Source: Eledone cirrhosa (Eukaryota). Taken from it: a stretch of 64,000 bases of DNA. The number at the start of each line of letters is the position of its first letter. Within the stretch, counting starts at the first letter, position 1. Below, piece after piece: positions 561 through 54,508 of the stretch. The stretch lies in the NCBI GenBank assembly GCA_964016885.1, contig OZ024742.1:147622001-147686000 (forward strand), in the 5' to 3' direction. Position numbers and translations under genes: made by a program. The notes under the pieces were generated by a model, which did no database searches, was not told the origin of the DNA, and saw nothing but the letters and a program-made list of their open reading frames with translations.

Positions 561-734
561 GGTAGGGGTAAGGTGTATTTTGGCTTAAGAGGTGCCTTCT
601 TCCAATCTATGCCAAAATAAAAAAACAAATGTAAAATGATAATGAAGGTCATAGTAAGGTGGTTAGTCTCCAGTACACACGTATTTAGTGAAGTTAATTT
701 TTTCATAAAATAATTTACCACAGATTTACTAGTA

Positions 735-2186
735 TCATTTCTTTCTGGTATGAATGCATTTGTGAGAAGTTAAATTACATTTCACAGAAAATGATTTATC
801 ACACCCATCACAGTGATATGGCTTCTCTCCTGTATGAACACGTTTGTGAGATTTTAGGTGATCATTTCGTGGGAATGATTTACCACAGATATCACAGTGA
901 TATGGTTTCTCTCCTGTATGAATACGTTTGTGGGTATTTAAGTGACTTCTGTAAGTAAATGATTTACCACAGATTTCACAATGATGTGGTTTTTCTCCAG
1001 TATGAATACGTTTGTGAGTATCTAATTGATCCTTTCGAGAAAATGACTTACCACAGATATCACAACGATATGGTTTCTTTCCTGTATGTGTGCGATTGTG
1101 AGAAGTTAATTCACTATTTCTAGAGAATGACTTACTACAGATTTCACAATGATATGGCTTTTCTCCTGTATGTATACGTTTGTGTTTAGTTAAAGAATTT
1201 CCATGAGAGAATGCTTTATCACAGATATCACAGTTATATGGTTTCTCTCCTGTATGAATACGCTTGTGAATAGTTACGTTACCTTTTTGAGAGAATGATT
1301 TACCACAGATATCACAGTGATATGGCTTCTCTCCTGTATGAATGAATTTGTGTTTAATTAAGGTAAGTGTTTGAGAGAACGATTTACCACAGATATCACA
1401 ATGATATGGTCTCTCTCCCGTATGAATACGTTTGTGAGTAGTTAGGTTACTTTTTTGAAAGAATGATTTGCTGCAGAAATCACAGTGATATGGCTTCTCT
1501 CCTGTATGAATTCTTTTATGTTTAGTTAAGTCATTTCTTTGTGAGAATGATTTAAGACAGATATTGCAGTGATATGGTTTTTCTCCAGTATGAATACGTT
1601 TGTGGATTGTTAAGGCATTTCCTACAGAGAATGTCTTGCCACATATATCACAGTGATATGGTCTTTCTCCTGTATGGATACGTGTATGGCTAGTTAAGTC
1701 ATTTCTTTGTGAGAATGATTTACCACAGATATCACAGTGATATGGCTTTTCTCCAGTATGAGTACGTTTATGGCTAGTTAGGACATTTCCATCGGAGAAT
1801 GATTTACCACAGATACCACAGTGATATGGTCTCTCTCCAGTATGAATACGTTTGTGTCTAGTTAAAGTATTTTCGTGAGAGAATGATTTACCACAGATAT
1901 CACAGTGATATGGTTTCTCTCCTGTATGAATACGTTTGTGTCCAGTTAAAGTATTTCCGTGAGAGAATGATTTACCACAGATATCACAGTGATATGGTTT
2001 TTCGCCTGTATGAATGCGTTTATGAGTAGTTACATTACCTTTCTGAGAGAATGATTTACCACAGATATCACAGTTATATGGTTTTGTATTTGTATGAGTT
2101 TCTTTATGCTTAGTCAAGTCATTCCTTCGAGAGAATGATTTTTTACACATATTACTGTGGTATGATTTTCCCGTATTTTTCGGCAT
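735..2186 (-). CDS. C2H2 zinc-finger protein ZNF-1: 17 tandem fingers (first degenerate, Cys>Ser), no effector domain
   Basis: 483-aa ORF of 28-aa C-x2-C-x12-H-x3-H repeats with TGEKPY linkers; starts MPKNTGKS, ends HKCIHTRKK. Confidence 0.93.
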
Positions 2187-2605
2187 CTTTGTGGTAATAA
2201 ACTTAATCCTTTAAATCACTCAAATAAGTTATTTCCCTACAACTCTGATGTCAACACAATATATACATAATTTTCTTTTTATATTTTATTTCAAACAAAC
2301 ATTTCTACAGCTACATTTCCATCAACTATAGTCTTTGTCAATATCTGAAGATCCTGTAAACTCCTTTGTATCTTTAAGTTTAATGAGAATGAAAAATCAC
2401 CCTGAACATATTCCAGTCAGTGAAATAGAGAAATGTTGCTATTAATCTCAGTTCAGAGGAAATAGTTCACAGTAATTCTACCACAGATTTATAGAAATAC
2501 AATTATATCTGTTGTATATAACTCCTTCCTTTAGTCTTTAAAAGATGATACATGTTGATGACACTGTTAAAGTAAAAACGTTATTCTGAAATAATAAAGA
2601 AACAG
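2187..2605 (-). promoter_or_regulatory. Putative splice acceptor (AG at 2587-2586) and 5'UTR part of the ZNF coding exon
   Basis: Minus strand reads CTGTTTCTTTATTATTTCAG|AATAACG; conserved upstream of every ZNF (about 11888, 21646, 30559, 38735, 60510). Confidence 0.6.
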
Positions 2606-2699
2606 TAAAAAATATAAGTGGATATTAAAATGTAAAGATTCAATAATAGAAATTTTACTACTTTTTCATATTCATAAACTGTAAACTTTTACCTACACT

Positions 2700-3975
2700 A
2701 AGTTTATGAAGAACTTGGGCATATTACTGCATAAGTTACTTCAATTTTTACACTTAATTCAGCCTTCTGCCTTCCATCACCCATGAACATAGACCCAAGA
2801 TACTTGAACTTCTCCACCTGCTTCACTGGAACTCCCCTCACATGCAGCTTCTTTGAGAGGATGTGTGTCTGTCTTTGCAGCATTGATTTTCATCCCTATG
2901 GTGTAGCACTCAGCATGAAAGCTATCAAGTGCATGTTGATGGTCACCTTCTGATGAGCTAAGTAATACCATGTCGTCTGAAAATTCCAGCTGACTGATCT
3001 TACTCATGTCAGTTTCAATTTAGCACCATTTATCCAAGCACAAATACTTCAGCATTCATATAGACATCAGGGTAACATGAAATTGTACATCGATCCCATA
3101 CTCCTGCAGAACCTTCTACAGCAGGTTCTGTGGAATATGGTTGTATGTCTTTATAAGATCTACAAAGCAAGAATACACCTCTTAGCAATACTCTCACGAT
3201 TTCTCAAAGACCTGCTGCAGTGTGAATATTTGGTTGGCTGTTTTGCATCAGGGGCGAAAGCTACACTGTTCATCAGCGAGCTTTGATTCAACAATCCTTC
3301 TACATCTCATTGCCAGACACTTAGCATAGACTTTACAAGATCCTTCTCTAATTGGAGCAATCTCTCGTCTCAATTTTTGAAAATGAGGATTATCACCCCC
3401 AATTGTCATTGCTTAGGCGTCTTTTCAGAGATCTAAGTCGGTGGATGATCTACCAGAACACTTTATTTGCTGATCTGAAGTCGGATTCCTGCTTAACCCC
3501 TAAGTCCTCACATGTCTTAACTTTGGACACCATTACTGTCTCTGCTGTGACTTTTTGCATCTGCTTGTACTGCATGTGCAAGGACTTATTTCCAAGCCAA
3601 GCTTTGTAGGCCGCCTTCTTTGCTTGGCTGGCATCTTTGACCTTTTGACTGAACCATGTGGTCCTTCCTCCTGTCGCCCAGCGCCACACCAAGTTGCTTT
3701 CATCTGTAGCATTTAACAGCTCAAACAGAAACTGACTATTTAAACAGTCTCCACTCCACTCAGTTTGCTCAGAGTTCTCTGAATTTGGATGCAATAACAT
3801 CCGCATAACTGGTCCTCACTTCCTTATCCATCAAAACTTCCCACTTTATCCTATAGGTCGACCTGGACCTGCTCATTTTGTGGGCTTTTTCAGCTTTAGG
3901 TAGTCTCAAATTGCAGATAACTAAATGGTGATCAGTTGACAGTTCACCCCTCTCTTAATACGAAGATCCAGCACA
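2700..3975 (-). mobile_element. Degenerate RTE-clade LINE fragment (Rex3/Expander-like) in the ZNF intron
   Basis: Endonuclease tail TDHHLVICNLRL, RT motifs PKQWQLGVII, LEFSDDMVLL (YADD box) and QVEKFKYLGS; stops and frameshifts. Confidence 0.85.
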
Positions 3976-4069
3976 AAATCGAAAATATATATAATGACGT
4001 TAATGCTTTCATTTACTGAATGTTTTCCGTTTGTGTTTGCAGTGTGCAAAACGCGAATTTGCAAACATT

Positions 4070-4430
4070 TTCATCATACTTTCCAATTTTAATGATCTTG
4101 AACTTTCTCGCGTTAAATTATTATTTTTTTCTTTTAATAATTTTAAGAAAAGAAAATAAGAAACATAAATTATAATATTCAAAAGTGTCTATTATACATC
4201 ATAATGTTATATTCAATATTGCCGAAGTTGTTTTCTGGAATAGCACGGCGCCAATAGAGGTAACTGGCGAATCTCGCGAGGGCGCTTGGCTGTTCCAGCG
4301 CATGAGCCTCGCCATCACTGCCAGTGGGCTGGCTTGCCTCAAAAGTCATCAGAGAGGTTGCCGAGTACCCCTCGCTGGTCTTTTGCTCAGGTCTTGGCTC
4401 GGTTGTCCACCCCTTCCTTTACAGTTTTAA
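4070..4430 (-). promoter_or_regulatory. Putative ZNF-1 promoter and non-coding exon 1
   Basis: Local GC/CpG island in AT-rich DNA; TCTCGCGAG 4272-4280, second TCTCGCG 4106-4112, CCAAT 4251-4255; candidate donor AA|GTATGA at 4079. Confidence 0.6.
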
Positions 4431-5117
4431 ACGAGAATTTGTTTGTTTTTTTAGTTTGGTATTCCTTCAGTTTCCAGTTTTTTTCTTCTCTTCCTTTATT
4501 TAAACATGTCTTTCTCTCTTCCCTACCCCTAAACCTTTTCCTTACTTTCGCTATTTAATTTGTTTCCCCTCTTTCTTTTTCTTTTTGTTATTGCAAACAT
4601 TATATAACCGAATTGAAATTTGTCGAACAAATTAAAGTCCTTTAAAAAATGTTTTTTTCTATATATGAAAACGAAACTACCGAATCAATATAATTCAATA
4701 AAACAACAATATTATTTATTCAATGTTAATAGTATTTTTCTTACTTAATTACATTAAAACAAAATAAAAAAAATAATTTAACGCGGGGAAAGTTCAAAAT
4801 AACCGCTTTTACACCTACCTCCCATATTATGATACGCCATCGTAAACTTTTTATATAAAACCACGATAAAAGTATGTCTATACCTTTATTACTATGTATA
4901 ATTTCCACCATAAAGTAAACATATTTATTTATTTCAGCAATTTAAACGTCCTTATAGGGCTGGTAAGCCTGATAGACGGGCAGAGTTATTTAATATCCTT
5001 TATGACAAGAGTCAGAAACAAAAAGGAGGCAAATGAAGCAATAATAAGTAAAAAAAAGAAGGTATTTCGAGATTTTTAAAATATTTTTTTTCTTCTAAAT
5101 ACAATTTCTTTAATAAT

Positions 5118-5219
5118 TGTTTCTACTTTAGGCACAAGGCCAGCAATTACCCAGTGCATTACTGGTACTTTATTTTATCGACCCCGTAAGGATGAAAGGC
5201 AAAGTCAACCTCGGCAGGA
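5118..5219 (-). mobile_element. tRNA-derived SINE (Nin-domain-like), 5'-short copy
   Basis: Core GCCTTTCATCCTTACGGGGTCGATAAAATAAAGTACCAG; TSD TTTCTTTAATAAT at 5105-5117 and 5220-5232. Confidence 0.8.
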
Positions 5220-6520
5220 TTTCTTTAATAATGATAACAATTTAACTTACGACGTAATTCATAATATATTCAAAATTAAATTATTAAAAGAAATGTGTAT
5301 TAAAAAAAAAAACGATAATTATGCGAGCCTGTATATCCTGTATCGTCTAAGTGGAACAATTTTATTATTTACACATATTAATATAGACTTAAGGTAAATG
5401 TTTGTCAACTTACCGTGTTCACATGTAAACAGTAAATGAGTGAGTTGCGTGTTTATTTTATAAAACTACCAAAGAAATTATCTGGTTGTTATATTCAGCT
5501 TTTCAAATGTTTGATCAACTTTAGTTCTACAGCATCAATTTACAATGTAACTTCACATCTTTAGCCGGAGCTTCGTATCTTGTCAGAATATCATTAGCAA
5601 CAATTTCGATAGGAAATCCTTCTGCTACATTTACTCTATTTTTATATCGACAAATAATTACAGAAATGATTGATTAAAATTGTCCAAATGTAATAAAATC
5701 TAATTAATTTATAATAATATTTATCTGATTAAAGCATAATATTATTGTAATTATTTTTACATATACATGAACTGTTAAGTTTATTTTGTTTGCAAAGAAA
5801 CATTTCATTACAAATGCAAACTCTATTTTCTTAAATAAAAAACCGCTTGTGTGTGTGTAATAAAATTTTAATCCAAACTAATTCAAGAAAGCTATTTACA
5901 TTTCCTCAACTACGCCCGTATTCAGCAAAATTATCTCACAGTCAATAGTTCATCTACTGAGAACAGAATGGTATGGTTTGGTGTTGACCATTGTTGACAG
6001 ATCGTAGTCAAGGATTTATACAACAAGAACAAGTCAGGGTTTAATGGAAGCTGCAAAAGTAAAGTGCATATAGACACACACATTTATATGTGTAACAAAT
6101 TATCCTTTGGTGAATTTTGCTATGGTATGAAAATACGCCGTATTTTCATAATTTCCTACAAAAATTTACCAAACTATAATGTTACACTCAGCTAAGCAAC
6201 TATACAATCTCCATTTTTGACCATTGCAAAGAAAATACTTTCTGTGAATTCTATTTCAATATAATGTTAATATGGTTTTGTAGAATTCCTAAATATTTCA
6301 AATGTAGTTTCGTTTCCTTTATGCTCATTATTTACTCAGATACTAATGAGGAAATGCTGGAGTTTTGAGACAATACACCCACTATACTCTGTAATGTATC
6401 ATGCTGGTACTGTTAATAAAATACACCTGGTGTACTCAGTTAAGTGGTTGGTGATAGGAAAGGCATCTAGCATAAAAATTATGCTAAGTATGAGCTAGAT
6501 GTGGTTCTTAGACCAATAGT

Positions 6521-7875
6521 CGTGGGAACAGACCTAATCGTGGGAAAAATGCATGCCATGACAATATGTAAAGAAAATAAACCGAATACTCTGATGGCTG
6601 GATAATCTAAGATTTTCCTCGATGAAGCGGGAAAAATGCAGGTTTTCATTTAATGCGGGCCCTAGGGCATCAAGAAAATGAATTGTTTTATGTGCGTAAT
6701 ATGCCTTGAAATTTCGGGAAAATCGGTTAGTCGTAACGTCTAAAAAGCTGGAAGAAAAATGAAGTTTTTAACCTAATGCGGGCCCTAGGCCATAAAAAAG
6801 TTGGATTTCCTTTGTTCACAGTATGAAGAGACTGATTAATACAGTTACAATTACAAGGCAATCGGTCTGACGTAAGGCCTCAAAATACCCCAGTTTTTCA
6901 CCTAATAGGGGATCAAATGCTAGTTATTTATAATTCTTACAAAGTATAAAATTTACACACCAAAAAAATAAACAATACTTTATTTCTTAAGTAATTCGCA
7001 TAAAAATATAAAATCAAACGAATAAATATATATATATAGAGATTTTCTACAATAACTATATGTATATATATAATAGCTGTAAAATAGTAACTTTTGTTCT
7101 CATAAAGGCACGTAAGTAAGCAACAGTGAAAACTGAAGCTATTATAGCGATGTTTTTCTTTACATGCTTTAATTTTTAGTGTTATGTAAAATATATAACC
7201 TGCAAACCTGATTTTAGAATCGCAGCAGGATCGACTTTATTTCACTCACTCCACTAAAGGTTGGATTACGGTATGAAGAAGAGACTGACTAATACATAGT
7301 TACAGGCTTTCGTTTTTAGTGTTGTGTGAATTATATAACCGCTTTAGATAAGCTTACTATTGCCACAACCACAGCTGGCAAAGAAGTAAGGGTCTGGTGG
7401 TACGTAAGTAAGCAACACTGTGGCTTAAAACATGAGGAAGAAATTGTGTGCACTTACCAACTGTTTGGGGAATGTGTGAGATTTGTCTTGAGCAAGGGTG
7501 GTTGAATAACCGGAGGCAGTGGGCCGTAACTGACGTAATGCAGACATAGACATATATTATAAGAGCGCCTTCTGGATGCAGAGGGAATTGTAGGAAGTGA
7601 CGTAATGCAGGCAGTCAGACGTACAGACAGATATTATAAGGGCGCGACGTTATATGTATCTATCTAAAGAGAGAAAGACTAAGAATTATAGAGAGAGATC
7701 GCTAATTCGCCTAATCCGGTCCCTAGGGCATTGAAAATTTGAAATTTTTTTTGCTCAACACTCCCTGAAACATAAGTATTACATTTGTAAAGTTTGAAAA
7801 CAGTCGGTTGGGTGCTTCTCAAGTTTTAGGGGATTCAAACTCACAGAGATAGACATCCTGTTTTATATATAGAGA
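6521..7875 (-). mobile_element. Non-autonomous Helitron, 3' end deleted
   Basis: Homologous to the complete copies in the other units; hairpin/CTAG end missing. Confidence 0.7.
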
Positions 7876-8347
7876 CTAGCAGAAAACCACACGTGGGCGG
7901 TTTTTGCTAGTCTATATATCTAAAACAGAGAATGTCTGTCAGCTCACTAAAACTTAAGAACCATCCAACTGATTGTTTTCAAACTTTAGACATGTAATAC
8001 TTATGGTCCTGTGAGTGTTTTGAACAAAAATTATTTCAAATTCTTAGTCTTTCTTTTTAGATAGATACATAGATATAACGTTGCGCCCTTATAATATCTG
8101 TCTGGCTGTCTGCATTACGTCATTATGACGCGCTCAGCGCGATTCCCTCGGCCTCAGTGACCAAAGTCAATGGAGAGGGGAAGGTAATGTTTCTGTAGCA
8201 CGTGTTTTAGCGTCTATTCACTCTCTCCCTCCCGCTATCCCCCTCTTGTAGTCTGTCTCTTTCTTTCACTCTCACTCTGTCTCAACGCACGTGTTTCCAC
8301 CGTCGGACAGACAGACAGAGAAATTGCTGGTTATATATATGAGTAGA
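7876..8347 (-). mobile_element. Second, composite Helitron-like insert unique to unit 1
   Basis: Minus strand starts TCTACTCATATATATAAC followed by (CTGT)n and ends GGTTTTCTGCTAG; contains an inverted copy (7911-8123) of the first Helitron's 5' end. Confidence 0.55.
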
Positions 8348-8502
8348 TTATGATATTTGAAGCTTGTGTTACGTTCGTTCTAGATATAAATAACACAGTA
8401 TCACACATGTAGGTTTTTATACTAGAATATATATCATATTTTAACATTATCAGTGACTGGGAAATATATTCATTTTAGACTGCCTCTCAACCCACTAACT
8501 TT

Positions 8503-8720
8503 CTACATCACATTTTCACTAGATAACTACCATCAACCACTGACTACATCACATGTTCACTAGATAACTACCATCAACCACTGACTACATCACATTTTCA
8601 CTAGATAACTACCATCAACCACTGACTACATCGCATGTTCAATAGATAACTACCATCAACCATTAACATTGCATGTTCAATAACCACCATCAGCCACTAA
8701 ATACATTGCATGCTCATTAT
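8503..8720. repeat. 41-bp minisatellite, ~4 copies plus degenerate tail
   Basis: Unit CTACATCACATGTTCACTAGATAACTACCATCAACCACTGA. Confidence 0.95.
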
Positions 8721-9864
8721 ATAACCATCATTTAATGTAAAAAGATATCCTATTGTTTATCTCTCACTCACTACATGATAACCTCTAATATCTAGTATTT
8801 AGTTTCAAATATTGTCAACAAATTATATAGCTTACAAGTAAACAGTTAGTAAATATTTCAGTTTAAAGAAATATTTAACTTTTATCATATATTGAACTGT
8901 GAATTATATAGTTTAAAGTTGTGTCAGGTTAAATATAATGACAGAATAATTTAAGAATAAATAATTTATATTTAGATTTAGCGTGATGAAGAATATTCAC
9001 ACATGTATGTGGTCAAAACTCAGGATTCTGGGATTGACAGTTAAGATGACAAAAGATTGAGAAAATTCAGTGATAATTTGTATGACAGACATATCAAACC
9101 CACACAAGCCGGCTGAATGGACATTAAAACATTAATATTTATATACATATAAAAATGAGAAAACTCATCGCTAGAACAGCTGTTAAGACATCTAAATTCT
9201 GTCAAAGACAACAATGGACAGAGACCTGTGTCCAACAATCCACAAGGTGGGTCACAGGCAAATGAAATATAGAAAAGATTGGAAGAGGACAAACAGAAGT
9301 GTGTTGGTGCATACAATTGACAGGCAGAAGGAAATAAAGAATGTACAAGACAAGTTTACACACACACATCTATCTTCACCCTCATCAACTCTCAAACCAG
9401 CAAAACGTTTTTCACAATTTCAAATATAACTGAACAGTGCCATTGTCCTTTATTTATGAGGGTGATTTCTCAGATATAGTTATATAAAATAGTGTTGGAA
9501 GGTATATATATTCTTTCTTCTGTAAATGGTTATATAAGTTTTGTTTATTTTCTCAAATGGGTTCTGTAACAATTGATCTTTCCTTTGTTACAAACCAGTG
9601 GACTTCTTGCCCTAGAAAAATCTGGTAACAATAATGTTGTTAACCTCAACATCCACAAAACTTGAATGATGTCTTGTATGTAACTCTCTAAAAACTGCCC
9701 ACTGAAGAGCTTCATTGATCTGTCATCTCTGTTCCACACCCTATCAACTCTCCATTATGTCCTCAATAATCATCATTTACTTATTAATGACCTACTAGCC
9801 ATCATGTCCAGCAATGCCCACTAAGTTGATACCACCCTTCATTCATAAAATAATTTACCACAGA

Positions 9865-11484
9865 TCATTTCTTTCTGGTATGAATGCATTTGTGAGAAGT
9901 TAAATTACATTTCGCAGAAAATGATTTATCACACCTCTCACATTGATATGGCTTCTCTCCTGTATGAACACGTTTGTGAGATTTTAGGTGATCGTTTCGT
10001 GGGAATGATTTACCACAGATATCACAGTGATATGGTTTCTCTCCTGTATGAATACGTTTGTGGGTAGTTAATTGACTTCCGTAAGTAAATGATTTACCAC
10101 AGATTTCACAATGATGTGGTTTTTCTCCTCTGTGAAATTGTTTGTGAGTATCTAATTGATCCTGTCGAGAAAATGATTTACCACAGATATCACAACGATA
10201 TGGGTTCTTTCTTGTATGTGTTCGATTGTGACAAGTTAATTCACTATTTCTAGTGAATGACTTACTACAGATTTCACAATGATATGGCTTTTCTCCTGCA
10301 TGTATACGCTTGTGTTCAACTAAAGAATTTCCATGAGAGAATGCTTCATGACAGATATCACAGTGATATGGTTTCTCTCCTGTATGAATACGCTTGTGAA
10401 TAGTTACATTACCTTTTTGAAAGAATGATTTACCACAGATATCACAGTGAAATGGTTTCTTTCCTGTATGAATGAGTTTGTGTGTAATTAAGGCACTTCT
10501 ATGATTGAATGATTTACCACAGATATCACAGTGATATGGTCTCTCTCCCGTATGTGTGCGTTTGTGGTTGGTTAAATAATCTTTTCGAGCAAATGACTTA
10601 CTGCAGATACTACACTGATATGGCTTCTCTCCTGTATGAATACGTTTGTGGAGGGTTAAAACACATCGTTCAGAAAATGATTTACCACAGATATCACAAT
10701 GAAATGGTTTCTCTCCTGTATGGATACGTTTGTGGCTAGTTATGGCATTTCCTGAAGAGAATGAGTTACCACAGATATCACAATGATATGGCCTCTCTCC
10801 TGTATGAATACGTTTGTGAGTAGTTAGGTTACTTTTTTGAAAGAATGATTTGCTGCAGAAATCACAGTGATATAGCTTCTTTCCAGTATGAATTCTTTTA
10901 TGTTTAGTTAAGTCACTTTTTTGTGAGAATGATGTAACACAGGTATTACAGTGATATGGTTTTTCTCCAGTATGTATACGTTTGTGGATTGTTAAGGCAT
11001 TTCTTACAGAGAATGTCTTGCCACATATATCACAGTGATATGGTCTTTCTCCTGTATGGATACGTGTATGGCTAGTTAAGGCTTGTCTTTCAGAGAATGA
11101 TTTACCACAGATACCACAGTGATATGGCTTTTCTCCAGTGTGAGTACGTTTATGGTTAGTTAGGCCATTTCCATCAGAGAATGATTTACCACAGATATCA
11201 CAGTGATATGGTTTTTCTCCTGTATGAATACGTTTATGTCCAGTTAAAGTATTTCCGTGAGAGAATGATTTACCACAGATATCACAGTGATACGGTTTTT
11301 CTCCTGTATGAATACGTTTATGAGTAGTTACATTACCTTTCTGAGAGAATGATTTACCACAGATATCACAGTGATATGGTTTTGCATTTGTATGAGTTTG
11401 TTTATGCTTAGTCAAGTCATTCCTTCGAGAGAATGATTTTTTACACATATTACAGTGGTATGATTTTCCCGTATTTTTCGGCAT
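9865..11484 (-). CDS. C2H2 zinc-finger protein ZNF-2: 19 fingers
   Basis: 539-aa intact ORF, paralog of ZNF-1 with the same N- and C-termini. Confidence 0.93.
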
Positions 11485-44132: not shown

Positions 44133-44388
44133 AAACGATGATTTGTTTGTTTGTTTGTTTTTAGTACTGTTTGGTATTCCTTCTTAAGTTTCCAGTTTTT
44201 TTTTCCTCTCTTCTTTTATTTAAACATATGCCTTTCTCTCTTCCCTACCCTTAAACCTTTTCCTTACTTTCGTTATTTAATTTTTTCCCCTCTTTCTTTT
44301 TCTTATCGAAAACATTATATAACCGAATTGAAATTTGTCGAATAAATAAGTCCCTTAAAAAAATAGAAAAACATGAATATGAAAACGA

Positions 44389-45621
44389 GGCATAGGTTAA
44401 GTTTAACGTTCGGGAAAGTGAAAGTAAATTTTCTTACAAGTGAATTTGTTTGTTGCTTTTTTTTACAATGAAAGTTACGATACACACGCAATTGTATGGA
44501 TTTCTTAAAATATATATATGTGTGGGTGTGTATATATGTGTGTACACTGTGAATTTGTTTGTTTATTTACAACAGATCTCTATAGTGATATGGTGTTAAT
44601 TAGTATTGCGTGTGTGATTATTTTTTCTTTTTCTTTTTTTGTGTATTGTGTGTACGGAAAAATTCTTTTTAAATAATGACATTGTGTGTTTTTAAGTAGC
44701 AAGATATTACAAAAACATCTAAACGATGATGACACAAACACATATATATATACAAACACACATATATATACACACCCACACATATATATATAAGAAAAAA
44801 TAATCACACACGTAATACTAATTAACACCATATCACTATAGAGACCTGTTGTAAATAAACAAACAAATTCACAGTGTACACACATATATACAAACATATA
44901 CACACCCACACATATATATATTTTAAGAAATCCATACAATTGCGTGTGTATCGTAACTTTCACTGTAATAAAAAAACAACAAACAAATTCACTTGTCAGA
45001 AAATTTACTTTCACTTTCCCGAACGTTAAACTTAACGTATGCCGGTTAAGAATAACGTCCTCGAAAGTGAAAGTCATTTTTATGACAAGTGAATGTGTTT
45101 TTTTTTTTTTTTTTTTACATTGAAAATTACGATACAGTTTGTTTATTTACAACAGGTCTCTATAGTGATGTGGTGTTAATTAGTATTGCGTGTGTGATTA
45201 TTTTCTCTTTTATATATATGTGTGGGTGTGTATATGTGTGTCTGTATGTATATATATATGTGTGTTTGTATATATACGTGTTTGTGTTATCATCATCGTT
45301 TAGATGTTTTTGTAATATCTTGCCAATGTTGGCACCAACTATAAACAAATTAAGGCCGGGTCATAAGGACAGAGAATGATAAGGGATTTGGGTAAAAACA
45401 TCTAAACGATGATGATGACACAAACACATATATACAAACACACATATATATATGAGAAAATAATCACACACGCAATACTAATTAACACCATATCACTATA
45501 GAGACCTGTTGTAAATAAACAAACTGTATCGTAAATTTCAATGTAAAAAAAACAAAACAAACACATTCACTTGTCATAAAAATGACTTTCACTTTCGAGG
45601 ACGTTATTCTTAACCTATGCC
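44389..45621. mobile_element. Non-coding foldback/MULE-like DNA transposon composite (1233 bp)
   Basis: Termini GGCATAGGTTAAG...CTTAACCTATGCC; 9-bp TSD TGAAAACGA at 44380-44388 and 45622-45630; single-copy empty site in other units; long internal inverted arms. Confidence 0.9.
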
Positions 45622-46607
45622 TGAAAACGAAACTACCGAATCAATATAATTCAATAAAACAACAATGTTATTTATTCAATGTTAATAGTATTTTTCTTAC
45701 TTAATTACATTAAAACAAAATAAAAAAATAATAAAACGCGGGGAAAGTTCAAGATAACCGCTTTTACACCTACCTCCCATATTATGATACGCCATCGTAG
45801 ACTTCTTTGTGCATATATAACCACGATAAAAGTATGTCTATACCTACGTATAATTTCCAGCATAAAGTAAACATATTTATTTATTTAATCAATTTAAACG
45901 TCCTTATAGGGCTGGTAAGCCTGATAGACGGGGAGAGTTATTTAATATCCTTTATGACAAGAGTCAGAAACAAAAAGGAGGCAAATGAAGCAAAAAAAGG
46001 TATGAGATTTTTTAAATATTTTTTTTCTTCTAAATACAATTTCTTTAATAATGATAACAATGTAAGTTACGACGTAATTCATAATATATTCAAAATTAAA
46101 TTATTAAAAGAAATTTGTATAAAAAAAAAAAAAACGATAATTATGCTCGCCTGTATATAATTACTGTTTAGCAGTATTAGTTATAGATGTTATCGAAATA
46201 CGAGTGACATAATAATGATTTCAACAGCAGAAATTAGAGATGAAATATACGTTTATTTTTTGATGTAGCACAAACAATGGTGTGGTACAGAGGCTGGTTT
46301 CTTACGTGTGATCAGTCGGCTTTCTCGCGTTCTCAACCGGCGTTGTTCTATCAAGGGGCGTGAGGCGTCTTACTACAGTACCTCGAGCCAGATTTTCAAA
46401 TTATCGAAAATCGATGTCATTACTCAAATGTGGAGTAAGATGGCGAACAAAGCAACAAGGGGGAGCTATTCGCTCTACCAAAAATTGAATCCAGAATAAG
46501 GATTTGAAAAATGTTTAAAAAAAAAACAAACAACATGCATGCATAAAAAAAACAAGGCAAAGAAAAAGCAGAAACACAGAGGCAAAAAAAGGTGCAGCTA
46601 ACATAGT

Positions 46608-48262
46608 CTAAATATAGACGGCGCTGCAAAATTTTTTGGGCCAGTGGACCCTACGACCTGAATGGGTCGTGGTCTTGTAACGTGGTGGTGGTGTAGGGAC
46701 AGGCGATGATGATGGTTCAGGAACAGGCGTTCGCTCAACAGGCAAATACGAAGGGGTTCGTGGATCAGGAACCACAGCGTCCGTGTCAAGATGCGCCTGC
46801 TTAAGCCTGTCTATTGTAACTGTCTCCCTGGAGCCCTTAATATCTAACGTGAAATGCTTAGCCGAGCGCGCTAAGACACGGTAAGGTCCAGTGTAAGGCT
46901 GTGTGAGCGGGGGCTTCACAGAATCTTTCCTTACAAAGACATGCGTCCACGAGGCAATATCCCTCGGGACAGCAGTCTTGACAGTTTGTTTCCTAGTGTC
47001 CATTGGCGGCAAATCCTGGAAATAGGAGCTCAAACGGGACACGTAGGAAGCGTGATCTTGGGCATCAAGATCGATAGGGGCACCGTACAGTACTTCGGCC
47101 GGTGAAAATCCAAAGTCGACCTTCACCGTTGACCGAATCCCTAGTAGCACAATAGGGAGGTACTCGCTCCAACGCGCCGAGTCCATTGAGGCCATTAAGG
47201 AGGCCTTCAGCTGTCGGTGAAAACGCTCCACCATACCATTTGAAGCAGGATGGTACGCCGTAGTTCTAATGCGTTTAGCACCAATTAATTTTGACAGCTC
47301 GAGGAAAAGGCTCGACTCGAACTGCCGTCCACGGTCGGTAGTTATTGTGGATGGAACTCCATAACGAGAGATCCATCCAGACACCAGAGCACGTGCTGTT
47401 GTCTCCGCGGTGATGTTTTTCAAGGGGATGGCCTCAGGCCATCTCGAAAAACGGTCAACAGATAAGAAAAACCATCGCTGACAGGCCAAGGTCCGACTAT
47501 GTGAAAAACGCGCATCTGGATTAGCAAAGGTACCCAGGGGAGCCTTGATGTGTCGATGGACCTTTGATCTCTGGCAAGCGACGCAGGAACGGCACCAAGC
47601 AGCAATTTCACGCCTCATATTTGGCCAGAAAAATCTAGCTGATATGAGCTTTGCTGTGGCAGAAGATCCTGGATGCGAGATACTATGTAATCCCAGAAAC
47701 ACAGTCCGACGATGATTCTCTGGAACGAAGGGCCTAGGCACGTCCAAAGAGACGTCGCAGAGGATTTGGCCAACTGCAGTCGACAGAGGCAAGTATTTCA
47801 TCTCGCAATTCGCAAACTCAGGCGATGCGACATCCAATGACTCAAGGGGAGGCTGATCCGCAGCCAAACGAGTCAGATCTATGTCAGAGGATGACGAGAT
47901 CGCTGTCACGGGTAAGCGGGACAAAGCATCGGCCGCTGTATTTAGTGAACCCGGAATGTGCTGGATATCACTCTTATATTGCGAGATGAAATCAAGGTGT
48001 CTCGTCTCTCTGGGCGAGTATTTATCAGCCTTCGCTCTCAAAGCAAAAGTCAATGGTTTATGGTCAGTGAGGATAGTAAATTGTCTACCCTCTAGCTCAT
48101 GTGAAAAATGTTTCACGGCCAAAAGCTCTCTTCCAAAGGTGCTGTAGCGCGTCTCAGCAGGATTTAGCTTTTTGGAAAAAAACTCCAGCGATTGCTGGTA
48201 ACCATTGATGTTTTGCTGTAGTACTGCGGCCACAGCGATATCCGATGCATCAACACAAAGCG
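46608..48262 (-). pseudogene. pol: Element A pol: RNase H and integrase with small deletions and compensating frameshifts
   Basis: [20 protein letters not shown] (HSISHPG...CVAC), [22 protein letters not shown]; region of the first catalytic Asp is shifted out of frame. Confidence 0.9.
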
Positions 48263-49645
48263 TTAGCTTTGCACCGGGTGAGTCAGTAACGAAGCATTAG
48301 CCAAAGCAGTTTTGGCGTGCTGAAAATCAGCAAGTTGAGTGTCTGTCAAAGAAATATCTTTGTTCTTCCTCCGACAATTTTTCAAAATTTCTGTCAGGGA
48401 GAAAAGCAATTTTGCACAGTTTGGCACGAAACGCCTATAAAAGTTAACCAGACCTAAGAACTGGCGTAACTGACGTAGTGAGGTCGGTGGAGGCAAATCC
48501 TCTATGACCTTAACTCGCTCAGGCCGGGGTCGAATACCGTCAGCATCGATGACGTGACCCAAGAAAGTCAGTGACTCAGCACCAAAAACACATTTGGGTG
48601 CATTAAGCTGCACGTTATACGCCTTCAATCGGCGGAAAAGAAGATTCAAATGGTGTGTATGCTGCTCTGGAGAAGAACTAGCAATGAGCAGGTCGTCAAT
48701 ATAGGTATAGACGAAATCGAGGCCGCGAGTAACCTCATCCATAAACCGCTGAAAAGTACTAGCGGCATTCCTTAATCTGAACGGCATAGTCAAAAACTCA
48801 AAAGACCCAAATGGCGTAACTATAGCCGTTTTTGGAATGTCATTTTTATGGACAGGAATTTGATGGTACGCACGAATTAAATCCAGTTTGGAGAATATCT
48901 TGCATCCCTGCAACGAAGACGCAAAGACTTGCAGATGAGGGATAGGATACCAGTCCGGTACCGTTATCGAATTCAGGCGTCGATAATATCCAGTAGGTCT
49001 CCAATCGCCATTCGCTTTCGGTACCATGTGTAATGGGGACGCCCACGGGCTCGTGGACGGACGAATAATCCCCATTTGCAGCATATGATCAAACTCTGAT
49101 CGTGCTGCTTTGAGTTTGTCCGGAGGCAAGCGACGAGGACGAGAGAAAATGGGAGCACCAGTTGTAGATATGAAGTGCTCTGTGGTATGAGTTGGTTCAT
49201 CAACTTGAAAATTTCCCCGAGTCAGTTGCGGGAACGAGTTCAACAACGCATGGAAAGGATCACTGGTGTTAGCAAGAAAAAATGTCGGGCTAACCGTTGG
49301 AACTCCTGCTGCCTTGCCAACAACAGTTAATCCCGTGATGCCATCAATTAGGCGTTTACGACGAAGGTCCACCGTCAATGAAAAATGGTGGTGAAAATCC
49401 GCGCCTAGAATCGGATACGGCAAGGCAGCGACAGTAAATATCCATTTAAACTCGCGCCGCAGATTACGAAACTGCAAAGGTAACGAGATTTGTCCGAAAG
49501 TTCGAATCGGCGAACAATTTACTGCCTGCAACTCAATAGGCGTCTCCTTCATACAACACAGGCCATACGGAACAAACTGCACCTGTCAACCAGAAAAGCT
49601 CTACCTGACAGCAGGTCCTTAATGAAAAAGTGGCGGTTAGATGTT
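48263..49645 (-). pseudogene. pol: Element A pol: protease (frameshifted at LVDTGA) and reverse transcriptase
   Basis: [50 protein letters not shown] motifs. Confidence 0.9.
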
Positions 49646-49699
49646 GTTTCGCAGAGCGCACTATCCGCCGTTAGTGACTCTGGTCGTCTTTTCCCTCGT

Positions 49700-49832
49700 A
49701 AGCACAAGGACCCCTACCGCTTTTCTCGGGCATTTGAGCGATTCCCAAGATCAGGATAGCCCTTTCCTGAAGCAATTGTTCTTCTCTCGCCTACCTCAAG
49801 AGGTACAGGCGATCCTAGCCCATATGCTATAA
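49700..49832 (+). pseudogene. gag: Gag fragment of element A in inverted orientation
   Basis: Plus-strand RTPTAFLGHL...SPFLKQLFFSRLPQEVQAILA resembles the CsRn1-type Gag motif RKPSQxL...LFLQRLP...ILA, on the strand opposite to pol. Confidence 0.6.
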
Positions 49833-51466
49833 AGCTGCCACTCACTGTTCCCCGTATTGGTCAGTGGTTAAACAACGCTGTCGCTGCTGCTGTCGTTGTT
49901 GTTGTCAAGTGTAGCCATGACATTTCGGTAGCCATCTTGAAATTTTTTCGTGGCGAAAAATTCTTTGAAATACTGCCAATTTTTCAAAAATCTTATAAGG
50001 AATATTTTTTATTTTCGCAAGTTGCGAAAAGGTTGGCAACGTGGCAATAAAAGTTCAACTGAATGAAAAAGAAGGGCTGCGTTAAATTCTTACGTCGGTC
50101 ACCACTTTAGCAGTATTAGTTATAGATGTTATCGAGATACGAGTGACATAATAATGATTTCAACAGCAGAAATTAGAGATGAAATATACGTTTATTTTTT
50201 GATGTAGCACAAACAATGGTGTGGTACAGAGGCTGGTTTCTTGCGTGTGATCAGTCGGCTTTCCAGTGGCTGTCTGTCTTTTCTTTCTCGCGTTCTCAAC
50301 CGGCGTTGTTCTATCAAGGGGCGTGAGGCGTCTTACTACAACTGTATCCTCCAAGTGGAACAATTTTATTATTTACACATATTAATATAGACTTAAGGTA
50401 AATGTTTGTCAACTTACCGTGTTCACATTTAAACAGTAAATGAGTGAGTTGCGTGTTTATTTTATAAAACTACCAAAGAAATTTTCTGGTTGTTATATTC
50501 AGCTTTTCAAATGTTTGATCAACAGCATCAATTTACAATGTAACTTCACATCTTTAGCGGTTCGTATCTTGTCACAATATCATTAGCCACAATTTCGATA
50601 TGTGCTACATTTACTATATTTTTATATTGACAAATAATTTATTAAAATTGTCCAAATGTAATAAAATCTAATTAATTTATTAACTTATTGTAATTATTTT
50701 TACATATACATGAACTGTTAAGTATATTTTGTTTACAAAGATAAACATTTCTTTACAAATGCAAACTCTATTTTCTTAAATAAAAAACGCTTGTGTGTGT
50801 AATAAAATTTTAATCCAAACTAATTCAAGAAAGCTACGCCCGTATTCAGCAAAATTATCTCAGTCAATAGTTCATCCACTGAGAACAGAATGGTATGGTT
50901 TGGTGTTGACCATTGTTGACAGATCGTAGTCAATGATTTATACAACAAGAACAAGTCAAGGTTTAATGGAAGCTGCAAAAGTAATGTGCATATAGACACA
51001 CACATTTATATGTGTTTAGTGAATTGGTCACAGGGTTATTTTCTTTGGTAAACGCCAATGCAGGCGAGCCACTAATTTAATTTGTTACAGATATAAGGTT
51101 AACAAACTCGTTCGTGAGTGAACTGTCTGAGAGCCGGTCGCCAAATATGCCAAGATGTCTCTTTTCTCCCTCCTTTATAATCCCTAGACCGGAAGTTCGA
51201 GGAATCTTCTAGAATTCAACGGAAAGTAACTCCAATTAGTTTTTTCTCCTCGGGCACGGTGGCGCTAGTCGCTACAAGGCTCCCCTCCAGACAATAGTTA
51301 ATAATAACCATAAGGTCATTGTAGCGAAAAGCTGTAGAATAAGGAGCAAGCAAAACAAAAGGTAGATAAATTGCAATAGTTTGTAACAAAATGAAAATAA
51401 ACATGCAGAAAAATGTAACTGGAACAATACGAGGGAGCAAGAAAAATAATGCTCAAAATTTTAATG

Positions 51467-53587
51467 CTAACAGTTAATGCTACTAGGGGTTAGACGAATA
51501 TTGTTTTTGAGAGTTTCCATGGGCATATTATTGTCCTGCCACTTCGTGTGACATGGTTGTGTGGTATGTGGTGTTTGAGGTGAAGGTGTTTGTGTGGGAC
51601 TGTATGTGCGAGATATGCCAGGCAATGATGTGAGATTTTCAGAGAAATCTTTCTTTGCTCTGTTAACGGATATTACCTCTTTTCGACCATTGACAGCCAC
51701 TGTAAAGTGTTTTGGTGTGTGCGAAAGCACACAAAAAGATCCATTATAAGGTGACGTAAGAGTTCCCTTGACGGAATCATTCCGTATGAAAACGTGTGTC
51801 CACGTAGAGATGTCCGATGGGACGGCAGAAGAATTAGATTGGTCACGAGGGTTCATTGATGGAAGATCCGAGAAATACGAACGAATGCTGGTGACATATG
51901 ATGCTGGGTCAAGATGTGATGAATCCACTGGTGCTAACATTTGTCCAGGAAGAGACAATGTAGTACCATAAAGAAGTTCAGCAGAAGAGAAACCTAAATC
52001 TGTCTTAATGGCAGAACGACAACCGAGAAGCACGATTGGCAAAAATTTGGTCCAACGTTGCAGATCAGGAGTAGCGCGAAGTGCAGCTTTCAACTGTCTA
52101 TGAAACCTCTCAACCATTCCATTGGAGGCTGGATGATAGCTGATCGTATGAATGTAATGAGCACCCAAGAGTCGTGATATTTTACGAAATAAGGAAGCTT
52201 CAAATTGGCGTCCACGATCCGTAGTTATTTTAGTAGAAATACCAAAGCGAGCAATCCAATTAGAAATGAAAGCTCGGGCAACGGACTCTGCTGTTATGTC
52301 CACTAAGGGTATGGCTTCAGGCCACCGAGAGAAACGATCGATACAAGTCAATATGTATGTGAACCCACGACTAACGGGCAATGGACCAACAATATCCATG
52401 TGAATATGACGGTAACGTGCGTCTGGCGGGCTGAATTTCCCAAGAGGAGCGCGGACATGACCATAAATCTTAGAGCATTGACACCTCGAACAAGAACGTG
52501 CCCAAGTGGTGATTAAATGACGCATATTAGGCCAGAGAAATCAAGCTGTAATAAGCTTCACCGTGGCAGCTATGCCGGGATGCGACAAGGAATGAAGTGC
52601 ATCAAAAACGGTACGTTGATGGCAATCTGAAACAAGTGGTCTGGGTGAGCCAGTAGAAATATCGCAAAGAATTTTTCCTTCAGCAGACGGAAGAGGTAAA
52701 TATTCAAATTTTCAGCAGGAAAACTGGGTAGAAGAAATGTCCAACGAATCCAAAGTAGGTTGGTCAGTTGCTATGGCAACCAAATCGATGTGTAGGAGAC
52801 GCAAGAGAACACACGGAAAGTCGAGATAATGCGTCCGCGGGTATGTTGGCAGCTCCAGCTATATGACGAATGTCACTGGTGTATTGGGATATGAGATCCA
52901 AATGTCTGTATGCCCTTGGAGAATATGTCGGACTTGGTTTGAAGAGCGAATGTGAGTGGTTCATGGTCTGTGAATACTGTGAACTCTCGATCTTCAAGAA
53001 GATGGTGGAAGTGTCTCACAGCAAGATAAACTGCTAAAAGCTCTCTGTCAAAAGTACTGTAACGTTGCTCTGTTGGTTTTAGTTGGCGTAAGAAAAACGC
53101 CAGTGGATGAACCTGGTGGTCGATCGTATGTTGCATGACTGCTCCAACAGCATGATCGGATGCGTCAACAGATAAAGAAAGTCTCGCGTTTGCAACAGGT
53201 TGGGCGAGTAAAGAAACTTCAGCCATCTCAGACTACAAAGTATCGGCAGAAAGTGAAATAGGAGCATCTTTGTTTTCCGCAGCCTTTAAAAACTGTGTCA
53301 TGGGGAACAACTTGTCCGCACAGTTAGGAATGAAGCAACGATAAAAGTTAATTAATCCCAAGCAATGACGTAATTGTTTCAGGGAGGTGGGTAGTGCAAT
53401 ATGCTGAATTGCTTCTACCTTAGATGGCAAAGGTCGTATGCCTTCTGAATCTATCAGATGTCCAAGGAATTCCAGTGAATCTGTACCAAACACACATTTA
53501 GCTGGGTTGATTCTGATTTGGTACGATTGGAGACGTTGAAATAACTGAGATAGATGTTGATGATGGTGTTCATCCAAATCACTGGCT
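51467..53587 (-). pseudogene. pol: Element B pol remnant: C-terminal RT, RNase H, integrase
   Basis: ORFs 53233-53577 (KCVFG..FLGH), 52873-53226 (VDASDHAVGAV, RELLA) and 51467-52525 ([26 protein letters not shown]), with stops between them. Confidence 0.9.
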
Positions 53588-53626
53588 ATCGGAAGGTTGC
53601 GTGTTCATATCACGTCGGGGTCACCA
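53588..53626 (+). other. 39-nt copy of the tRNA-Trp 3' half including CCA (extended primer-binding site of element B)
   Basis: ATCGGAAGGTTGCGTGTTCATATCACGTCGGGGTCACCA matches recalled metazoan tRNA-Trp(CCA) positions 38-76; canonical 18-nt PBS is 53609-53626. Confidence 0.88.
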
Positions 53627-54508
53627 CTTTGGTGAATTGGTCACAGCGTTATTTACTTTGGTAAATGCCACTGCAAGCCAACCACTAATTTAATTTGTTA
53701 CAGATATTAGGTTAACAAACTCACTCGTGAGTGAACTGTCCGAGAGTCGGTCGCCAAATAAGCCAAGATGTCTCTTTTCTCCCTCCTTTATAATCCCGAG
53801 ACCGAAGTTCAAGGTATCTTCTAGAATTCAACGGGAAGTAACTCCAATTAGTTTTTTCTCCCCGGGCAAGGTGGCGCTAGTCGCTACATGTGTAACAAAT
53901 TATCCTTTCGTGAATTTTGCTATGGTATGAAAATACGCCGTATTTTCATAATTTCCGATATAAATTTACCAAACACTATGATGTTACTCTCAGCTAAGAC
54001 AGCAACTATACAATCTCCATTTTTGACCAGTCAGACACAGGCTGAAGCTGTCACAGCTTTATTTCCTTACTCTCTTTTCAAACATCACTTAGCCTGTTTC
54101 TCTCTAAAACGATGTACAATACAACATAGTTTGCCTCAATACAACTTCACCTAAAAACATTGTAAAGAAAATACTTTCTGTGAATTCTATTTCAATATAA
54201 TGTTAATATGGTTTTGTAGAATTCCATGGCTAAAATAAATATTTCAAATGTAGTTTTGTTTCCTTTATGCTCATTATTCGCTCAGATACTAATGAGGTAA
54301 TGCTGGAGTTATGAGAAAATACACCCACTATACTCTGTAATGCATCATGCTGGTACTGCAATAAAATACACCTGGTGTACTCAGTGAAGTGGTTGGTGAT
54401 AGGAAGGGCATCTAGATATAAACTATGGTAAGTATGAGCTAGATGTGGTTCTCAGACCAATACAGTCCTGTCCACCCTATGGCAGTATGGAAAGCAGATG
54501 TAAATGAT

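What the first reader, a model, noticed from the sequence alone, without database searches (positions are those of the whole stretch)
53560..53630. Half a tRNA-Trp written into an LTR element, with an apparent m1A58 misincorporation and a stop at position 37
Seen: next to the 5' LTR of element B are 39 nt (53588-53626) matching the tRNA-Trp 3' half with CCA, not the usual 18 nt. The 19th nt from the end (53608) is T where the T-loop has invariant A58 (GTTCATAT vs GTTCRAAT). The match stops at A38 and joins directly into RT coding sequence (minus strand ATA GCC AGT, IAS, just after the YIDD box), so gag, PR and half of RT are gone. Known: plus-strand strong-stop DNA normally terminates at m1A58, read-through of m1A causes mismatches, and G37 is commonly m1G, a strong RT block. 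Inference: RT read through m1A58, stalled at 37, and the over-long strand transferred to an internal site by short (AT) microhomology. The genome would thus record two tRNA modifications and the birth mechanism of a deleted element.
Basis: partly seen in the sequence, partly recalled or inferred. Interest (0 to 1): 0.85.

Follow-up and report, generated by a model that had tools for sequence, protein, structure and literature searches.

The report
Jumping genes record tRNA modifications
A deleted jumping gene carries a 39-base copy of its primer tRNA where its family has only 11, and dozens of separate insertions in this genome show the same over-run with errors piled up at tRNA position 58, so the DNA likely preserves a record of chemical marks on the host's tRNA and of how such deleted copies likely arise.

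Summary
Confirmed, with two corrections. 53588-53626 matches the host tRNA-Trp(CCA) 3' half plus CCA at 37 of 39 bases. It lies beside the 5' LTR of a CsRn1-type Ty3/gypsy copy whose family PBS is only 11-12 nt. There is a second mismatch (position 41), and the junction microhomology with RT coding DNA is 5 exact bases (7 of 8), not 2. So this copy's end at 38 does not by itself prove a stall at 37. The junction is unique and replaces about 1.87 kb. It is one of 39 distinct over-run events. Position 58 is wrong in 11 of 39 (A4, G4, C3; background 31/1224, p~1e-8), whereas 77 of 79 host genes have A58. Ends fall at 41-35 (26 of 34) and 30-27 (7), none at 34-31; position 37 is miscopied in 2 of 8 read-throughs. 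In another family, copies converted repeatedly onto a built-in second box that ends at position 37. The parts are known from retroviruses; I found no genome-wide fossil read-out in 10 literature searches. The scan noted long tRNA copies at PBSs in other genomes.

The parts
53889..53892 (.). target-site duplication TGTG (right)
   Evidence: empty sites in five paralogous host repeat units; 4-bp TSDs in intact family copies
53628..53888 (-). 5' LTR (TG...AAA ends), 92% identical to the 3' LTR
53588..53626 (-). 39-nt complement of mature tRNA-Trp(CCA) positions 76-38, in place of the family's 11-12 nt PBS, 5' UTR, gag, PR and 5' RT (about 1.87 kb replaced)
53608..53608 (+). tRNA position 58 read as T (A in the plus-strand cDNA): likely misincorporation opposite m1A58
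53591..53591 (+). tRNA position 41 read as G: differs from both the tRNA genes and the RT acceptor; likely a later substitution
53588..53595 (-). junction microhomology between tRNA copy and RT coding DNA (5 exact at 53588-53592 when host tRNA and intact copies are compared; 7 of 8)
53233..53587 (-). 3' part of RT (starts just after the YVDD box)
   Evidence: (RVT_1 positions 161-203 of 205, below curated cut-off)
52876..53232 (-). RNase H domain (reading interrupted by stops)
   Evidence: PF17917, PF17919
51470..52540 (-). integrase core and C-terminal part
   Evidence: PF00665
51280..51288 (-). polypurine tract
51015..51276 (-). 3' LTR
51011..51014 (.). target-site duplication TGTG (left)

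Best explanation
This is a single, deleted copy of a CsRn1-type Ty3/gypsy retrotransposon that likely formed when plus-strand synthesis ran past the usual stop into its tRNA-Trp primer, likely mis-copied a methylated A58, and likely joined the minus strand inside the RT gene at a 5-8 base microhomology before integrating with a 4-bp duplication. Shown: the anatomy, the unique junction, the microhomology, the short native PBS, the excess of wrong bases at 58 over 39 events, and repeated origin in two families. Inferred: (1) the errors at 58 and 37 come from m1A58 and m1G37; (2) the tRNA-bearing strong-stop strand is normally a dead end, as in Ty1/Ty3, which is why native copies keep an 11-nt PBS; (3) this copy's strand ended at 38 because of m1G37 (about 50%; the join could equally have been made inside a longer overhang). 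For the window's T at 58 I put misincorporation at about 85%.
For: Host tRNA-Trp genes: A58 in 77 of 79, G37 in 77 of 79, none encodes CCA. Family B native PBS is 11-12 nt (14 places). The junction is found once in the genome (the only other hit, at 3 mismatches, has a different junction). Intact RT ends ...CTCCTGAT against tRNA copy ...CTTCTGAT; only 2-3 such sites exist per 4.2 kb of element. Other family-B junctions share 2-8 nt with the acceptor, in sense or antisense. Position 58 is non-T in 11 of 39 events against 31 of 1224 other sites (Fisher p 1.2e-8); transversions 8 of 39 against 6 of 1224 (p 1e-9); G or C alone 7 of 39 (p 1e-4). Position 37 is wrong in 2 of 8 read-throughs (p 0.016), and in L008, which lies outside the set. 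One copy that passes 26 is wrong at 26 (L189). Ends of 34 events: 41-39: 11; 38-35: 15; 34-31: 0; 30-27: 7; beyond: 1 (p 6e-4 against constant hazard, windows chosen after seeing the data). Family Z: 7 fully tRNA-converted copies against 29 others (27 native, 2 partly converted) are not one clade (AU p 6e-7; 1e-4 without two long branches) and differ at 58 and 47. Family-B A58 copies are weakly rejected as one clade (AU p 0.02, star-like tree). HIV-1 strong-stop products ending at 58, 55, 54 and 37 are described (PMC13191261, section 10 read).
Against: No modification was measured. The window copy has an unrelated mismatch at 41, and its LTR pair differs by 7-8%, so single changes do arise later. 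28 of 39 events have the correct base at 58. Two host gene copies have T58 and could supply the A class. Ends are not sharp at 38, and 9 of the events ending at 37-35 copied G37 correctly. Family X copies (52 of the 100 listed rows, by my count) were dropped as inherited, and 22 unlisted matches were not seen.
Confidence: 0.82

Rival explanations
1. The primer was a tRNA-Trp 3' half cut in the anticodon loop, so the enzyme ran off its end near 38-35 instead of stalling at m1G37.
For: Ends are spread over 41-35 (26 of 34); 9 events end at 37-35 with G37 copied correctly.
Against: 8 of 34 events pass the loop, one reaches position 8 (L189) and one covers nearly the whole tRNA (L088), so intact primers were used at least sometimes. 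Wrong bases at 37 occur in read-throughs. The second cluster at 30-27 needs another cause (likely a modified G26).
Confidence: 0.25
2. The end at 38 is set only by where the RT gene offered microhomology; the strand was longer and the excess was trimmed, or the stalled minus strand invaded the overhang.
For: 5 exact and 7 of 8 shared bases end exactly at 38; the A at position 37 is fully explained by the acceptor.
Against: 5 other, unrelated events also end at 38 and family Z's built-in box ends at 37; microhomology alone would not empty 34-31.
Confidence: 0.3
3. The T at 58 comes from a variant tRNA-Trp gene with T58, which lacks the methylated stop and is therefore over-represented among read-throughs, or from a later point mutation.
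For: 2 of 79 host gene copies have T58. Family B is biased to A at 58 (6 of 8 read-throughs). The window LTR's terminal branch is 0.037.
Against: Both T58 genes have C47, while the window needs T47, and both carry other stem or loop changes. 7 of the 11 wrong bases are G or C, which no gene supplies. A later T>A is about a 1% event (inference from divergence).
Confidence: 0.12
4. The 39 nt are an inherited long PBS, or came from a tRNA gene by DNA recombination, and the deletion is a separate later event.
For: Other families do inherit long tRNA copies: family X about 32 nt with A at 58 fixed, family Y 32 nt before gag.
Against: Family B native copies have 11-12 nt. No second copy shares the junction. 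Extended family-B copies all differ in length and partner and are weakly rejected as a clade. tRNA genes give neither CCA nor errors at 58 and 37.
Confidence: 0.05

Closest known systems
CsRn1 clade of Ty3/gypsy elements (CsRn1, PwRn1, AgCRs; PMC2582038, passages read)
   Same: tRNA-Trp PBS, 4-bp TSD, CHCC Gag motif, GPY/F integrase motif in intact family copies
   Different: The passages I read describe an ordinary PBS, with no over-run tRNA copies; the window copy has lost gag and PR.
HIV-1 over-extended plus-strand strong-stop products and the primer over-extension sequence (PMC13191261 section 10 read; PMC8599865 passages read)
   Same: Stops at 58 and, as a minor product, at 37; read-through when m1A58 is missing; a viral sequence that accepts over-run strands
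   Different: These papers say products running past 54 cannot be transferred or integrated. Here such products are fixed in the genome, with TSDs, in dozens of events, and carry misincorporations. Family Z's accepting box reaches position 37, not 54.
Retroviral deletions by erroneous plus-strand transfer (Pulsinelli and Temin 1991; title seen only in the reference list of PMC9278108, content recalled)
   Same: Large deletions starting at the PBS from faulty strong-stop synthesis and transfer
   Different: Single-round vector experiments in cultured cells; I recall no modification-specific tally and did not read the paper.
Ty1/Ty3 dead-end tRNA-bearing (+) strong-stop DNA and bipartite PBS (PMC5371799, passages read); Drosophila gypsy two PBSs (PMC1635307, passages read)
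   Same: Short 11-nt PBS plus a second tRNA-complementary box; tRNA sequence normally not inherited
   Different: In Ty3 the strand stops after 12 nt of tRNA; here it runs 39 nt or more and is sometimes inherited.
RT signatures of m1A and m1G in tRNA-seq (PMC4787781 abstract and section 27 read; PMC8062790 passages read)
   Same: Arrest plus misincorporation at m1A58, m1G37 and m2,2G26, depending on context and enzyme
   Different: These are in vitro libraries; here the signature is written by the element's own enzyme into germline DNA.

Membership tests
CsRn1 clade (Ty3/gypsy) | PBS complementary to tRNA-Trp | tested here: met
CsRn1 clade (Ty3/gypsy) | 4-bp target-site duplication | tested here: met
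   window TGTG; clear 4-bp repeats at L128, L134, L129, L137; L126 has one mismatch; three of the eight sites examined are AT-rich
CsRn1 clade (Ty3/gypsy) | Gag CX2HX9CX3C (CHCC) motif | tested here: met
   4 of 5 long family-B copies; absent from the window copy because gag is deleted
CsRn1 clade (Ty3/gypsy) | RT-RNase H-integrase order with GPY/F motif | tested here: met
CsRn1 clade (Ty3/gypsy) | RT groups with CsRn1/PwRn1 in a tree | not tested
   no reference RT sequences were fetched
Over-extended plus-strand strong-stop capture | mature-tRNA copy (with CCA) at the PBS, longer than the family's PBS | tested here: met
Over-extended plus-strand strong-stop capture | microhomology at the junction, intact LTR ends and TSD | tested here: met
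Over-extended plus-strand strong-stop capture | the intermediate itself is observed | not testable with these tools
   needs particle cDNA
m1A58 RT signature | excess mismatches at 58, of several kinds, against A58 genes | tested here: met
   11 of 39, A4 G4 C3
m1A58 RT signature | m1A shown on the host tRNA | not testable with these tools
   no RNA holder listed
m1G37 stall | ends peak at 38 and read-throughs are miscopied at 37 | tested here: inconclusive
   6 of 34 end at 38 within a 41-35 cluster; 2 of 8 miscopied
Primer over-extension sequence (lentiviral type) | native sequence beyond the PBS that matches the tRNA and accepts over-run strands | tested here: inconclusive
   not used by the window copy; family Z has a box matching tRNA 54-37 with repeated conversions; function not assayed
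tRNA gene or tRNA-derived SINE | tRNA 5' end with A box, in gene orientation, independent of an LTR | tested here: not met
   no tRNA gene in the window; only the 3' half, antisense to the element and abutting its LTR

The most novel reading that the evidence does not exclude
CsRn1-type retrotransposons routinely read through m1A58 and write an enzyme-specific, position-resolved record of germline tRNA modifications (58, 37, 26) into the genome. The over-run strands are integration-competent and are the source of new multi-part primer sites, one of which has evolved into a landing box tuned to the stop at position 37. Genome assemblies alone could then be mined as fossil tRNA-seq.
Probability: 0.45. 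Interest if true: 0.82.

Novelty: new variant of a known kind. Interest (0 to 1): 0.66.

Why it matters
The reviews I read state that strong-stop DNA running past tRNA position 54 cannot be transferred or integrated. This genome holds dozens of such products, some with target-site duplications, so the step is leaky in vivo for this clade and is a route to deleted and non-autonomous elements and to long or split primer sites. It also makes two questions testable from assemblies alone: which tRNA modifications were present in a germline in the past, and how different retrotransposon enzymes treat them (family B: 5 of 5 wrong at 58; other families: 6 of 34; p 8e-4).

Tried and rejected
ARAGORN and Rfam found no tRNA in the window or region: the piece is too short and is not a gene. 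The raw count at 58 over the first 100 listed of 261 matches (A61 T31 G6 C2) was rejected as evidence because most A rows belong to one amplified family. I first read family Z as having an inherited 39-40 nt PBS; one search showed most copies have an 11-nt PBS plus a second box, so I dropped that reading. A G41 isodecoder was sought and not found (0 of 77; 0 of 79). The family-B LTR tree has no strongly supported branch, so it is weak evidence. Sequencing runs: no RNA holder listed. Ten literature searches showed no paper, by title or start of abstract, that tallies modification errors in genomic PBS extensions. The library lacks most subscription and older papers, and I opened no supplements. 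I found no source for the modification map of this tRNA-Trp; that tRNA-Trp bears m1G37 is recalled. Earlier-findings look-ups by full wording, place and sequence were empty.

Full report
Observation. The 39 bases at 53588-53626 are as described, with tRNA position 58 at 53608 read as T. They lie one base inside the 5' LTR (53628-53888, minus strand) of a 2,874-bp element. Its 3' LTR is at 51015-51276, 92% identical, with a TGTG duplication; empty sites are visible in five paralogous host units. Downstream come the end of RT, RNase H and integrase. One public contig spans the junction without differences, though it may be from the assembly's own sample.

Host tRNAs. The genome has tRNA-Trp(CCA) genes. 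Of 79 gene-like copies in the two clusters and six other loci, 77 have A58, 77 have G37, all have A41, and none encodes CCA. The window copy therefore has two mismatches, at 58 and at 41. The two T58 copies have C47; the window has T47.

The family. Long copies are 4.5-4.8 kb with 4-bp duplications, a CHCC Gag motif (4 of 5) and a GPY/F motif. This fits the CsRn1 clade as described in PMC2582038 (passages read); no RT tree was made. Their PBS is only 11-12 nt (14 places). The window copy replaces about 1.87 kb with the tRNA copy, and its junction occurs once in the genome. Intact RT DNA just before the junction shares 5 exact bases, and 7 of 8, with the end of the tRNA copy. The crossover can thus lie anywhere in positions 42-38, and the A at position 37 is explained by the acceptor. 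Of 18 LTR-PBS junctions examined, 7 events had an acceptor in the intact element aligned directly at the junction (L010 and L030 counted as one). All 7 share 2-8 bases with it, three in sense and four in antisense.

The population. 261 places carry a CCA-bearing tRNA-Trp copy past position 58, but many are inherited in amplified families. I therefore took copies reaching position 42 (122 matches, 100 listed). I dropped 52 family-X rows (my count) and one tRNA gene, and collapsed the remaining 47 sequences by shared junction to 39 events. Position 58 is wrong in 11 of 39 (A4, G4, C3) against 31 of 1224 elsewhere (p 1.2e-8). Transversions are 8 of 39 against 6 of 1224, and G or C alone 7 of 39. 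Caveats: the pattern capped mismatches elsewhere at two; sites 64 and 49 reach 5 of 39, nearly all C>T; 28 of 39 events are correct at 58. Position 37 is wrong in 2 of 8 read-throughs (p 0.016). Of 34 events passing 42, ends fall at 41-39 (11), 38-35 (15), 34-31 (0), 30-27 (7) and 8 (1); p 6e-4 against a constant stopping rate, with windows chosen after the fact. This fits blocks in the anticodon loop and near G26, but it is not a sharp stop at 38.

Repeated origin. In family Z, 27 of 36 copies have an 11-nt PBS plus a box matching tRNA 54-37, 2 are partly converted and 7 are fully converted to tRNA sequence. The 7 differ at 58 and 47 and are not one clade on a tree of the downstream gag DNA (AU p 6e-7; 1e-4 without two long branches). 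In family B the LTR tree is star-like and only weakly rejects one origin (p 0.02). Family B is wrong at 58 in 5 of 5 events of the set, other families in 6 of 34. This suggests an enzyme-specific signature, but a variant T58 tRNA could also contribute.

Mechanism. Shown: anatomy, microhomology, uniqueness, excess errors at 58, repeated origin. Inferred: plus-strand synthesis from the polypurine tract copies the LTR and runs into the primer, mis-reading a methylated A58 and often halting in the anticodon loop or near 26. As in Ty1 and Ty3 (PMC5371799, passages read) this strand is likely a dead end, which keeps the native PBS short. Now and then it pairs with the minus strand at a chance microhomology, and the product integrates. 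I give 0.82 to this route, about 0.85 to misincorporation for the window's T58, and about 0.5 to m1G37 fixing this copy's end. Rivals are a half-tRNA primer, an end set by microhomology alone, a variant tRNA or later mutation, and an inherited long PBS.

Known and new. Stops at 58, 55, 54 and 37 and an accepting sequence for over-run strands are described for HIV-1. The same texts say products past 54 do not transfer or integrate (PMC13191261 section 10; PMC8599865 passages). Deletions by faulty plus-strand transfer are known from Pulsinelli and Temin 1991 (title seen in a reference list; content recalled). Modification signatures are known from tRNA-seq (PMC4787781 abstract and section 27; PMC8062790 passages). 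Ten searches showed no genome-wide tally of such errors in retrotransposon primer sites; older and subscription papers are mostly outside the library, and no supplements were opened. Two earlier notes of this scan describe long tRNA copies at LTR elements in other genomes; I did not test them, and one pointed me to PMC1635307 (passages read). Verdict: real, a new variant of a known kind, interest 0.66; the value lies in the population, not in the single copy.

Noticed in passing
L208-L237, L153, L160, L167, L174, L180, L185 (family Z): Native 5' UTR is an 11-nt PBS plus a box matching tRNA-Trp 54-37 (one mismatch). Seven copies are fully converted to the tRNA sequence in separate lineages and two partly: a candidate landing pad for over-run strands.
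   Followed up: yes
L124-L137 (family B native copies): Native PBS equals the tRNA complement 76-66 joined to 59-52, as if six bases matching the 3' T-stem strand were missing; short CCGACGT-type repeats follow. Possibly a split primer site.
   Followed up: partly
L034-L063 (family X): A large amplified family has about 32 nt of tRNA copy with A fixed at position 58: a misincorporation that appears to have been inherited and multiplied.
   Followed up: partly
L009 (G000:C1:118579548 onward): One LTR plus tRNA copy to position 30, folded back onto the LTR's own start and flanked by a 4-bp duplication: a strong-stop strand that seems to have integrated by itself.
   Followed up: partly
L088 and L189: Nearly whole tRNA-Trp copies behind an LTR; L189 is wrong at 58 and 26 and ends near 8-9.
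   Followed up: partly
L012, L014, L010/L030, L007, L170: Family-B junctions into antisense element sequence or head-to-head LTRs, implying switches onto plus-sense templates.
   Followed up: partly
tRNA position 49 in the 39-event set: 5 of 39 show the same C>T change at a non-CpG site; only 1 of 79 host genes has the matching base. Unexplained.
   Followed up: partly
L206:3989-4060: A degenerate host tRNA-Trp gene copy is changed at both 58 and 37; may be chance, or cDNA-mediated conversion.
   Followed up: no
window 46167-50340: A second Ty3/gypsy element (minus strand) whose primer site also has a worn second tRNA-Trp box.
   Followed up: partly
window 700-11300 and further repeat units: Tandem host units of about 9-10 kb with 84-nt repeat arrays (C2H2 zinc-finger period, label from recall); they give the empty insertion sites.
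   Followed up: no
window 44388-45622: Nested inverted repeats (foldback-like insert) absent from the other tandem units.
   Followed up: no
G000:C4:353.39-353.49 Mb and 277.40-277.45 Mb: Two tandem clusters hold most of the tRNA-Trp gene copies, many degenerate.
   Followed up: partly
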